A stretch of 64,000 nt of DNA from the human T2T-CHM13v2.0 reference genome, Homo sapiens. The position numbers and the translations under genes are program-made. Numbering within the stretch: position 1 is the first letter of the stretch; every line of letters starts with the position of its first letter. The notes under the pieces are model-generated. The model was not told the origin of the DNA. It was given only the letters and a program-made list of their open reading frames with translations, and made no database searches. Below, piece by piece: positions 44,385 through 45,063 of the stretch. The stretch spans positions 6,688,001-6,752,000 of the forward strand of contig CP086569.2 in assembly GCA_009914755.4 (NCBI GenBank), written 5' to 3'.

Positions 44385-44415
<31 letters not shown>

Positions 44416-44688
44416 GTGTTTTTTTGAGACAGGATTCTTGCTCTGTGGCCAGTCTGGAGTGCAGTGGTCCAATCTTGGCTCACTGCATCTCCATCTCCTG
44501 GGTTCAAGCCATTCTCCTGCCTCCATCTCTCAAGTAACTGGGACTACAGGCGTGTGCCACCACACCTGGCTAATTTTTGTATTTTTTAGTAGAAACTGGA
44601 TTTCACCATGTTGGCCAGGATGGTCTTGATCTCAACCTCATGAACCTCCCACTTCGGCCTTCCAAAATGCTGGGCTTATAGGCATGAG
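44385..44688 (-). mobile_element. Alu SINE with a ~45-nt poly(T) lead; left member of an inverted Alu pair
   Basis: t31 ggtgtttttttgagacaggattcttgctctgtggccagtctggagtgcagtggtccaatcttggctcactgcatctccatctcctgggttcaagc...gctgggcttataggcatgag. Confidence 0.9.
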
Positions 44689-44965
44689 AGGCCAAGGCCG
44701 GAGGATTGCTTGAGTTGAACACTAGCTTGGACCATGTAGGGAGACCCCATCTCTACAGAAAATTTTAAAATTAGCTTAGTGTGGTGGCATACACCTGTAG
44801 TCCCAGCTACTCGGGAGGCTGAGGCGGGAGGATTCCTTGAGGTTGGGACACTGAGGTGGGAGGACCTCTTGAGCCCAGGAATTTGAGGCTGCCATGAGCC
44901 GTTAAGCCACTGCACTCCAGCCTGGGTGACAGAGCAGGCCCTGTCTCTAGAATAAATAAATAAGT
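44689..44965 (+). mobile_element. Alu SINE (5'-truncated), abutting the previous Alu head-to-head; ~100 bp upstream of the exon at 45064
   Basis: aggccaaggccggaggattgcttgagttgaacactagc...gtggtggcatacacctgtagtcccagctactcgggaggctgaggcgggaggattcc...cactgcactccagcctgggtgacagagcaggccctgtctc. Confidence 0.9.
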
Positions 44966-45063
44966 AAACTAAAGAGGCTTCTTGACTCTGCTGTTCATTG
45001 TTGTAAATCCATAGAGCTATGCACACAGTGAATAACTGCAGATGTCCTCCCTCCCTGCTGCAG

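What the first reader, a model, noticed from the sequence alone, without database searches (positions are those of the whole stretch)
44385..45063. Head-to-head inverted Alu pair ending ~100 bp upstream of a coding exon
An antisense full-length Alu (44385..44688, with a ~45-nt poly(T) lead) abuts a sense Alu (44689..44965) with no spacer. The pair forms a near-perfect ~270-bp inverted repeat. The exon at 45064 begins 98 bp after the pair. Closely spaced inverted Alus in pre-mRNA form long dsRNA stems that are ADAR editing substrates. They can also promote exon skipping or back-splicing, and such pairs are unstable in DNA (fold-back, deletion-prone). Additional antisense Alus flank neighbouring exons (36250..36530 after exon 36065..36162; 40262..40560), offering partners for long-range pairing.
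Basis: partly seen in the sequence, partly recalled or inferred. Interest (0 to 1): 0.5.

Follow-up and report, generated by a model that had tools for sequence, protein, structure and literature searches.

The report
Ordinary inverted Alu pair in TBL1Y intron
Two Alu repeats sit head-to-head in an intron of the human Y-linked gene TBL1Y; the pair is real but old, imperfect and stable, a routine feature of primate introns with no sign of a special function.

Summary
The window is human TBL1Y, and 45064-45185 is a genuine coding exon.

- Both Alus are 5'-truncated, not full length.
- The arms are about 77% complementary (62% counting gaps), with a longest exact run of 13 nt and a 32-nt insertion in one arm, so the repeat is not "near-perfect".
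- The RNA still folds into a long imperfect hairpin (-284 kcal/mol, z = -13), but its pairing energy ranks only 9th of 21 opposite-strand Alu combinations in the two flanking introns.

Gametolog comparison explains the zero spacer. Three primate TBL1X copies carry a full-length AluJ and an empty T-rich site. On the Y, an AluS replaced exactly 67 bp, including the AluJ head, and left no target-site duplication. Rhinopithecus TBL1Y has the same junction, so it predates the human-Old World monkey split and has stayed stable since.

ADAR editing is plausible but untested. A same-intron pair ending 92-116 nt from the exon is not expected to drive skipping or back-splicing. No annotated isoform skips the exon. 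Verdict: an ordinary, already-known kind of feature.

The parts
44380..44425 (-). Poly(A) tail of the antisense AluS, seen as poly(T) on the + strand: T31 at 44384-44414, GGTG, then T7.
   Evidence: Rhinopithecus TBL1Y has only a short degenerate TTTTTGTTTGTTTGTTTGTTTTT here, so the pure T31 run expanded on the human side after the human-Rhinopithecus split.
44426..44688 (-). Antisense AluS-type body, consensus positions 16-282, missing its first 15 nt. This is the left arm.
   Evidence: It aligns best to AluSx at 84.7% (the consensus was written from memory). Rfam Metazoa_SRP hits the - strand at 44424-44570, E = 8e-8. It is absent from three primate TBL1X copies and present in Rhinopithecus TBL1Y.
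44686..44688 (.). Junction with 3-nt microhomology (GAG) that can be assigned to either Alu.
   Evidence: The consensus alignments of the two arms overlap at 44685-44688. The same junction, GTGAG|AGGCCAAGG, is found in Rhinopithecus Y.
44689..44947 (+). Sense AluJ-type body, consensus positions about 43-282. Its head is deleted on the Y. It carries a Y-specific 32-nt internal duplication at about 44834-44865 and an 8-nt deletion. This is the right arm.
   Evidence: It aligns best to AluJo at 83.1% excluding gaps. Rfam Metazoa_SRP hits the + strand at 44774-44949, E = 1e-8. A full-length copy lies at the same site in gibbon, Sapajus and Callithrix TBL1X.
44948..44971 (+). A-rich tail of the AluJ (AGAATAAATAAATAAGTAAACTAA).
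   Evidence: It is conserved in all X and Y copies.
44972..44985 (+). Surviving downstream target-site duplication of the AluJ (AAGAGGCTTCTTGA).
   Evidence: The X copies keep both repeats: AAATGGGGCTTCTTG upstream of the Alu and AAAGAGGCTTCTTG downstream. The upstream copy lies inside the 67 bp lost on the Y.
45064..45185 (+). TBL1Y coding exon of 122 nt encoding (A)[40 protein letters not shown]. Skipping it would shift the reading frame.
   Evidence: It has AG acceptor and GTAAGT donor borders. The assembled CDS is 100% identical to XP_005262629.1, TBL1Y of Homo sapiens.
44913..45241 (.). Island with no X-versus-Y fixed differences, read as a likely X-to-Y gene-conversion tract. It overlaps the last ~35 nt of the AluJ, the intron end, the exon and 56 nt downstream.
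   Evidence: There are 0 Y|X split sites in 329 nt, against 25 in the 224 nt upstream and 56 in the 534 nt downstream. Human Y versus gibbon X identity is 97.3% inside and 72-81% outside.

Best explanation
This is an ordinary intronic inverted Alu pair in human TBL1Y.

Origin:
- An AluJ inserted before this X-Y region stopped recombining. It is still full length, with both target-site duplications, in primate TBL1X.
- Later, on the Y lineage and before the human-Old World monkey split, an AluS retrotransposed in the opposite orientation. It entered at a T-rich L1-endonuclease-like site (GTTTTT/AT) 25-26 bp upstream of the AluJ.
- The insertion is 5'-truncated and has no target-site duplication.
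- It replaces exactly 67 bp of target: the 25-26 bp flank plus the first 41-42 nt of the AluJ.
- This is the signature of a retrotransposition-associated target-site deletion. A later deletion of the palindrome centre would give the same sequence and is less parsimonious.
- That history, not selection, explains the zero spacer.

Likely behaviour (inferred, not shown):
- In the pre-mRNA the two arms are transcribed back-to-back and most likely snap into a roughly 250-bp imperfect hairpin with a 28-nt loop.
- In cells that express TBL1Y this hairpin is a generic ADAR1 substrate and is discarded with the intron.
- By pairing with each other, the arms are largely withdrawn from long-range pairing with Alus in the next intron. 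The expected net effect on exon 45064-45185 is therefore none, or slightly protective.
- At the DNA level the pair is too diverged and too asymmetric at its centre to be fragile.
For: - Identity and anatomy of the two Alus.
- Gene identity.
- Hairpin: MFE -284.4 kcal/mol, z = -13.4, 189 inter-arm pairs, innermost pair 44660/44689. The Rhinopithecus pair folds equally well (-275 kcal/mol, z about -14).
- Empty site: gibbon, Sapajus and Callithrix TBL1X all have GTTTTT followed by the same 67 nt (ATCRTGTTAYTAAATGGGGCTKCTTG plus the AluJ head) that the Y lacks.
- No AluJ head is left upstream of the poly(T): alignment score 8 against a null of 6.7 +/- 1.3. No target-site duplication was found either.
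- The same junction, the same 32-nt duplication and the same 8-nt deletion are present in Rhinopithecus TBL1Y.
- No sign of selection on the arms. Human-Rhinopithecus identity is 87.5% (left arm) and 91.5% (right arm), against 89.6-92.4% for flanking unique intron. Among the 204 predicted base pairs there are 18 one-sided changes that break pairs, 18 that keep them and 0 compensatory double changes.
- Literature. Target-site-deletion insertions occur at L1 EN sites, end in poly(A) and lack target-site duplications; Alu examples are known (PMC4859970). The distance and orientation rules come from RABL5 (PMC2533698). Fragility of Alu inverted repeats is lost at about 75% identity and drops about 40-fold when the spacer grows from 12 to 20 bp (PMC10164571).
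Against: - No RNA data were available, so hairpin formation in vivo, editing and the neutrality of the pair for splicing are all inferred.
- The right arm pairs more favourably with the downstream antisense Alu at 48640-48932 (ddG -142 versus -103 kcal/mol), so some cross-exon pairing cannot be excluded.
- The 'empty site' comes from the X gametolog, not from an orthologous Y lacking the insertion.
- One-step insertion-plus-deletion cannot be separated from insertion followed by a later central deletion.
- Subfamily calls rest on consensus sequences written from memory.
Confidence: 0.72

Rival explanations
1. The pair modulates inclusion of exon 45064-45185. It would act as a same-intron Alu pair of the RABL5 type, or through hairpin-dependent masking or exposure of the nearby branch point and polypyrimidine tract. 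The result would be a Y-specific alternative (frameshifting, NMD-prone) isoform.
For: A same-intron sense/antisense Alu pair shifts a downstream exon from constitutive to alternative in RABL5 (PMC2533698). The pair is Y-specific, because the X lacks the antisense arm. The Alu-derived sequence ends right at the ~100-bp zone around exons that is normally depleted of Alus (PMC13019027).
Against: In RABL5 the repressive element was the antisense Alu 24 nt from the exon. Inserts of 68 nt or more restored constitutive inclusion, and pairing with the sense Alu promoted inclusion. Here the proximal Alu is sense and ends 92-116 nt upstream. All 31 annotated TBL1Y isoforms join the flanking exons normally, although frameshifted NMD isoforms would not be annotated as proteins.
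Confidence: 0.1
2. The arms work mainly through long-range pairing with inverted Alus in the downstream intron (45542-45780 on the + strand, 48640-48932 on the - strand). This would loop out the exon and promote skipping or back-splicing (circRNA).
For: Right arm x 48640- has ddG -142 kcal/mol, better than the local pair at -103. Left arm x 45542+ has -78. Inverted Alus flanking exons are enriched at skippable exons (PMC13019027, PMC13019944).
Against: The local partner is transcribed immediately adjacent (0-nt gap, 28-nt loop), whereas the distal partners lie 853-3692 nt away across an exon. Intramolecular hairpin closure should therefore win kinetically (inference). No paper links TBL1Y to a circRNA beyond incidental co-mention. 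A single-exon circle of 122 nt would be unusually small.
Confidence: 0.08
3. The zero-spacer inverted repeat is a DNA fragile site, forming a hairpin or cruciform, and predisposes TBL1Y to deletions or fold-back rearrangements.
For: There is physically no spacer, and single-stranded DNA is predicted to fold back (-126 kcal/mol, z = -11.3). Diverged Alu inverted repeats can become recombinogenic inside long ssDNA regions (PMC10164571).
Against: Arm identity is 77% (62% with gaps), with a longest exact run of 13 nt, an asymmetric 28-nt centre and a 32-nt bulge. In yeast, fragility is lost at about 75% identity, and mismatches near the centre are strongly suppressive. The junction is unchanged between human and Rhinopithecus.
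Confidence: 0.05
4. The abutment arose in two steps. A normal full-length AluS insertion with target-site duplications came first, about 40 bp from the AluJ head. A later central deletion of about 90-100 bp then stabilised the palindrome. This rivals only the origin step of the best explanation.
For: The final sequence is equally compatible with this route. The deletion is centred on the symmetry axis and ends in 3-nt microhomology. Central deletions are a known way for palindromes to be stabilised (own knowledge).
Against: It needs two events instead of one. With a ~40-bp spacer and AluS/AluJ divergence, the initial pair would already have been weakly recombinogenic by the yeast rules. Both available Y sequences already carry the deleted form.
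Confidence: 0.3

Closest known systems
RABL5 intron 2 AluJo/AluSx pair (Lev-Maor et al. 2008, PMC2533698)
   Same: [quoted passage not shown] In RABL5 that duplex was shown to be edited.
   Different: In RABL5 the order is sense AluJo, 102 nt, antisense AluSx, 24 nt, exon, so the tails face each other and the antisense Alu is next to the exon. Here the order is antisense AluS, 0 nt, sense AluJ, 92-116 nt, exon, so the heads face each other and the sense Alu is next to the exon. By the paper's own spacing experiments, this distance is beyond the range in which the effect was seen.
Inverted-repeat Alus flanking exons (loop-out skipping or circRNA biogenesis; PMC13019027, PMC13019944, PMC4201285)
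   Same: The same kind of elements and the same base-pairing principle. Downstream partner Alus exist in the next intron.
   Different: Those mechanisms need one arm on each side of the exon. This pair has both arms upstream, which should compete with cross-exon pairing rather than promote it.
Alu inverted repeats as fragile quasi-palindromes (Lobachev and colleagues; PMC10164571, PMC3855049)
   Same: Two inverted Alus with a very short physical spacer.
   Different: The fragile constructs are 86-100% identical with a symmetric centre. This pair is about 77% identical, has an asymmetric centre (a 28-nt unpaired segment) and has kept the same junction since before the human-Old World monkey split.
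Retrotransposition-associated target-site deletion ('Alu retrotransposition-mediated deletion'; reviewed in PMC4859970)
   Same: A T-rich EN-like site at the poly(A) junction, a poly(A) tail, no target-site duplication, 5' truncation, and loss of target DNA (67 bp) relative to the empty site.
   Different: The deleted target included the head of a pre-existing inverted Alu, which created a head-to-head abutment. The empty site is inferred from the X gametolog rather than from an orthologous Y.

Membership tests
Alu SINE (7SL-derived dimeric element) | A body of about 280 nt homologous to 7SL/Alu consensus, with left and right monomers | tested here: met
   Left arm covers consensus 16-282 at 84.7%; right arm covers 40-282 at 83.1% (consensus from memory). 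Independent support: Rfam Metazoa_SRP hits on the expected strands, E = 1e-8 and 8e-8, below gathering.
Alu SINE (7SL-derived dimeric element) | A 3' A-rich tail and flanking target-site duplications | tested here: inconclusive
   Both elements have tails (44380-44425 as poly-T; 44948-44971). The AluJ target-site duplication is visible in the X copies. The AluS has none, which the 67-bp target-site deletion explains.
IRAlu dsRNA / ADAR substrate | [quoted passage not shown] | tested here: met
   The gap is 0 nt and both arms lie in the TBL1Y intron 38953-45063. MFE -284.4 kcal/mol, z = -13.4, 189 inter-arm pairs.
IRAlu dsRNA / ADAR substrate | Clusters of A-to-I (A-to-G) mismatches in RNA over both arms | not testable with these tools
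   No RNA-seq or editing database was available. No paper found links TBL1Y to editing.
Loop-out exon skipping or back-splicing IRAlus | The two pairing arms lie in the introns on opposite sides of the affected exon(s) | tested here: not met
   Both arms (44426-44947) are upstream of exon 45064-45185. Loop-out pairs are defined as flanking the exon in PMC13019027.
Loop-out exon skipping or back-splicing IRAlus | Observed skipped or back-spliced junctions | tested here: inconclusive
   31 of 31 annotated TBL1Y protein isoforms keep the exon, but NMD isoforms and circRNAs would not appear there. The literature search found no TBL1Y circRNA.
Same-intron Alu pair that shifts the downstream exon to alternative (RABL5 type) | An antisense Alu immediately upstream of the exon, within about 24-90 nt | tested here: not met
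   The exon-proximal Alu is sense. Its body ends 116 nt upstream and its tail 92 nt upstream.
Fragile inverted repeat / quasi-palindrome | High arm identity (about 86% or more) with a short symmetric spacer (under about 20 bp) | tested here: not met
   Identity is 77% (62% with gaps), the longest exact run is 13 nt, the centre has a 28-nt unpaired segment and one arm carries a 32-nt bulge. The thresholds come from PMC10164571.
Fragile inverted repeat / quasi-palindrome | Evidence of rearrangement or loss | tested here: not met
   The identical junction and arm architecture are present in Rhinopithecus TBL1Y.
Retrotransposition-associated target-site deletion | Poly(A)-end junction at an L1 EN-like T-rich site; no target-site duplication; target sequence missing relative to the empty site | tested here: met
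   The X copies read GAGACGTTTTT/ATC..., and exactly 67 nt present in three X species are absent on the Y. No target-site duplication was found. Caveat: the empty site is the gametolog, and a later deletion is not excluded.

The most novel reading that the evidence does not exclude
The Y-specific antisense AluS turned a lone, harmless AluJ (the TBL1X state) into a hairpin right at the edge of the exon-proximal Alu-free zone. This could give TBL1Y an editing or splicing behaviour at this exon that TBL1X lacks. In the same ancestor-to-catarrhine window, the exon and its splice signals were overwritten from the X by a ~330-bp gene conversion whose upstream edge lies inside the AluJ. Together these would make this intron end a small hotspot of X-Y functional divergence and repair.
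Probability: 0.06. Interest if true: 0.35.

Novelty: already known. Interest (0 to 1): 0.12.

Why it matters
It matters little for new biology. Inverted intronic Alu pairs number in the thousands (PMC2533698 counts 5009 introns with at least two opposite-orientation Alus), and their roles in editing, splicing and instability are well described.

The value here is corrective:
- The pair is neither near-perfect nor unstable.

The case also shows how a zero-spacer head-to-head Alu pair can arise from a single insertion-with-deletion event and then persist since before the human-Old World monkey split. The adjacent X-to-Y conversion-like tract may interest people who study sex-chromosome evolution.

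Tried and rejected
1. I scanned metagenome contigs for human or primate genomic copies using the exon peptide (one search failed because the query was too short; one search ran). Only intron-less or transcript-like TBL1 homologs from other eukaryotes came back.
2. The look-up of encoding contigs for P0006, P0101 and P0129 returned 'not on record'. The longest isoforms worked instead: P0032, P0136, P0012, P0154 and P0158.
3. I tested whether the AluS had simply inserted into the AluJ. If so, the AluJ head should lie upstream of the poly(T). It does not: score 8 against a null of 6.7 +/- 1.3, and no target-site duplication.
4. I tested whether the high-identity island near the exon reflects deep intronic conservation. 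Whale TBL1X shows no alignable upstream intron, and other exons lack such islands.
5. I looked for compensatory changes between human and Rhinopithecus in the hairpin and found none. The lower substitution rate at paired positions (8.7% versus 15.9%) is an ascertainment effect, because the structure was taken from the human sequence.
6. Literature searches for TBL1Y with circRNA and for X-Y conversion in TBL1Y found nothing specific.
7. P0149 and P0150, short cluster members that might have marked human Y contigs, are unrelated low-complexity peptides.
8. Rfam at gathering thresholds finds nothing in the window. Sub-threshold mir-1268 and mir-3135 hits in both arms are Alu-derived look-alikes, not genes.

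Full report
**Locus.**
- The window is human genomic DNA from TBL1Y.
- A TBL1-family probe located 12 coding exons on the + strand.
- All have AG acceptors, and all but the last of the 12 have GT donors at the coordinates I used. That one, 54419-54519, is off by one, and its GT donor follows 54518.
- The joined translation is 100% identical over its full length to XP_005262629.1, TBL1Y isoform X3 of Homo sapiens. The next best hits are macaque and Rhinopithecus TBL1Y at 93-94%.
It is 122 nt long and encodes (A)PALDVDW...FQGHT.
- The inverted pair lies in the intron 38953-45063.

**What is there.**
- Alignment to Alu consensus sequences, written from memory, places an antisense AluS-type body at 44426-44688. 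It covers consensus positions 16-282 at 84.7% identity.
- A sense AluJ-type body lies at 44685/44689-44947. It covers consensus positions 40-282 at 83.1% excluding gaps.
- Rfam's curated 7SL/SRP model does not depend on my memory. It hits 44424-44570 on the - strand and 44774-44949 on the + strand at E = 8e-8 and 1e-8, both below the gathering score, as expected for Alus.
- The antisense element's tail appears as T31 (44384-44414), GGTG, then T7.
- The sense element has an A-rich tail at 44948-44971.

**What is wrong in the observation.**
- Neither Alu is full length. The antisense one lacks 15 nt at its 5' end and the sense one lacks about 40.
- The repeat is not near-perfect. The reverse complement of the left arm aligns to the right arm with 189 matches, 56 mismatches and 60 gap columns.
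- That is 77% identity without gaps and 62% with gaps. The longest exact run is 13 nt, and the right arm carries a 27-32-nt insertion.
- The ungapped repeat finder sees only 82-nt arms at 78%.
- The RNA nevertheless folds into one long, irregular hairpin: MFE -284.4 kcal/mol, z = -13.4 against dinucleotide shuffles.
- The hairpin has 189 inter-arm pairs in 33 helices of at most 15 bp. Its terminal loop is 28 nt, because 44661-44688 has no counterpart in the truncated right arm.
- This excess over chance is just shared Alu ancestry. Among all 21 opposite-orientation Alu combinations in the two introns flanking the exon, this pair ranks 9th (ddG -103 kcal/mol).
- Stronger combinations include 40956+ x 48640- (-212), 40279- x 40956+ (-144) and right arm x 48640- (-142).
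- Another head-to-head pair, full length on both sides with a 24-nt spacer, lies at 30718-31301.

**How the abutment arose.** I retrieved five genomic loci:
- gibbon TBL1X (L081)
- Rhinopithecus roxellana TBL1Y (L082)
- gray whale TBL1X (L083)
- Sapajus TBL1X (L084)
- Callithrix TBL1X (L085)

The TBL1X introns are collinear with the window at about 77-81% identity. All three primate X copies share these features:
- They carry a full-length AluJ at the same site, with the same A-rich tail.
- They keep both target-site duplications: AAATGGGGCTTCTTG upstream and AAAGAGGCTTCTTG downstream.
- They have no antisense AluS.

Immediately after a GTTTTT run, each X copy has the same 67 nt. This is ATCRTGTTAYTAAATGGGGCTKCTTG followed by the first 41-42 nt of the AluJ. 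On the Y this segment is replaced by the poly(T) and the 5'-truncated AluS. Further points:
- The junction has 3 nt of microhomology (GAG).
- No target-site duplication flanks the AluS, and no AluJ head remains upstream of the poly(T).
- A T-rich EN-like site, a poly(A) tail, no target-site duplication and loss of target DNA together form the described signature of a retrotransposition-associated target-site deletion (PMC4859970).
- A normal insertion followed by a ~90-100-bp deletion of the palindrome centre would leave the same sequence. I rate that at about 0.3.

**Age and stability.**
- Rhinopithecus TBL1Y is collinear with the window across the whole region (one HSP, 43000-46500, 88.8%).
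- It has the same junction (…GTGAG|AGGCCAAGG…), the same 32-nt internal duplication and the same 8-nt deletion in the AluJ.
- The structure therefore predates the human-Old World monkey split and has not been resolved since.
- That fits the yeast rules. Alu inverted-repeat fragility falls exponentially with divergence and is lost at about 75% identity. It drops about 40-fold when the spacer grows from 12 to 20 bp, and mismatches near the symmetry centre are especially suppressive (PMC10164571).
- Here the identity is 77% and the centre is a 28-nt asymmetric segment.

**No sign of selection on the hairpin.**
- Human-Rhinopithecus identity is 87.5% for the left arm and 91.5% for the right arm. 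Flanking unique intron is 89.6-92.4%.
- Of the 204 predicted base pairs in the human MFE structure, 168 are unchanged. Eighteen have one-sided changes that keep a pair, 18 have one-sided changes that break it, and none shows a compensatory double change.
- The Rhinopithecus pair folds about as well (-275 kcal/mol), as expected for slowly decaying Alus.

**Function: what is shown and what is inferred.**
- Shown: the two arms are in one intron of an expressed-gene model and are thermodynamically able to form a long imperfect duplex.
- Inferred from established knowledge: such duplexes are ADAR substrates. PMC2533698 reports that for 92% of edited intronic Alus the nearest inverted partner is in the same intron, at a mean distance of 682 bp.
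- Editing could not be tested here.
- For splicing, the closest experimental precedent argues against an effect. In RABL5 the repressive element was an antisense AluSx 24 nt upstream of the exon.
- In that system, pairing with the upstream sense AluJo relieved repression, and inserting 68 nt or more between Alu and exon restored constitutive inclusion.
- Here the exon-proximal Alu is sense. Its body ends 116 nt upstream and its tail 92 nt upstream.
- Loop-out skipping and back-splicing require arms on opposite sides of the exon (PMC13019027). A same-intron pair should compete with that.
- All 31 annotated TBL1Y protein isoforms from human, macaques and Rhinopithecus read …[13 protein letters not shown]…[13 protein letters not shown]… without skipping or insertion. 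This is weak evidence, because NMD isoforms and circRNAs would not be annotated.
- No paper connects TBL1Y with circRNAs beyond incidental mention.

**Side finding: a conversion-like island.**
- A 329-nt island (44913-45241) spans the last ~35 nt of the AluJ, the intron end, the exon and 56 nt downstream.
- In a five-way alignment it has zero sites that separate the two Y sequences from the three X sequences. There are 25 such sites in the 224 nt just upstream and 56 in the 534 nt just downstream.
- Human Y versus gibbon X identity is 97.3% inside the island and 72-81% outside.
- Seven sites inside the island group human Y, Rhinopithecus Y and gibbon X against the two New World monkey X sequences.
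- Other exons do not show such flanks, and whale TBL1X has no alignable upstream intron. Deep conservation is therefore not the explanation.
- The simplest reading is an X-to-Y gene-conversion tract on the catarrhine stem, or recurrent conversion.
- The X-Y conversion survey I checked covers only stratum 5 and does not mention TBL1 (PMC4104316).

**Verdict.**
- The object is an ordinary member of a well-known class. Its origin is now explained (insertion with a 67-bp target deletion), and its stability since before the human-Old World monkey split is documented.
- There is no evidence of function beyond being a probable ADAR substrate. Interest is low.

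Noticed in passing
window 44913-45241: A 329-nt island around exon 45064-45185 has no X-versus-Y fixed differences. Human Y versus gibbon X identity is 97.3% inside and 72-81% outside, and there are 0 Y|X split sites against 25 and 56 in the flanks. It looks like an X-to-Y gene-conversion tract dating to the catarrhine stem. Its upstream edge lies inside the sense AluJ. Other TBL1Y exons lack such islands, and the whale TBL1X intron is not alignable there.
   Followed up: partly
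window 44384-44414: A pure T31 homopolymer sits in the tail of an old (~15% diverged) antisense AluS. Rhinopithecus TBL1Y has only TTTTTGTTTGTTTGTTTGTTTTT here, so the run expanded on the lineage leading to human. It is probably length-polymorphic, and it forms a long U-tract in the pre-mRNA.
   Followed up: partly
window 30718-31301: A second head-to-head inverted pair, an antisense AluS (30718-30996) and a sense AluJ (31021-31301). Both are essentially full length and are separated by a 24-nt spacer (TAAGAACTG + T14). It is present in Rhinopithecus TBL1Y, and no collinear match was found in the gibbon or Sapajus TBL1X loci held here.
   Followed up: partly
window 40956-41234 (+) with 48640-48932 (-); 44689-44947 (+) with 48640-48932 (-): The most favourable predicted Alu-Alu duplexes around this exon span it. 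The values are ddG -212 and -142 kcal/mol, against -103 for the local pair. If any Alu pairing loops out exon 45064-45185, these are the better candidates.
   Followed up: partly
window 44419-44433: The antisense AluS begins with U7-GAGACAG|G directly after the long U-tract. This resembles the 3' splice site used in exonised antisense Alus. No annotated isoform carries an insertion between the flanking exons. Splice-site strength was not scored.
   Followed up: no
window ~44834-44865: A 32-nt internal tandem duplication (CTGAGGYGGGAGGA…CTTGAG unit) lies in the sense AluJ. It is shared by human and Rhinopithecus Y and absent from all three X copies. It forms a side bulge in the predicted hairpin.
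   Followed up: yes
window 44446-44572 and 44772-44928: Sub-threshold Rfam hits to the Alu-derived miRNA families mir-1268 and mir-3135 occur in both arms (28-36 bits against gathering scores of 80-83). I treat them as Alu look-alikes, not miRNA genes.
   Followed up: no
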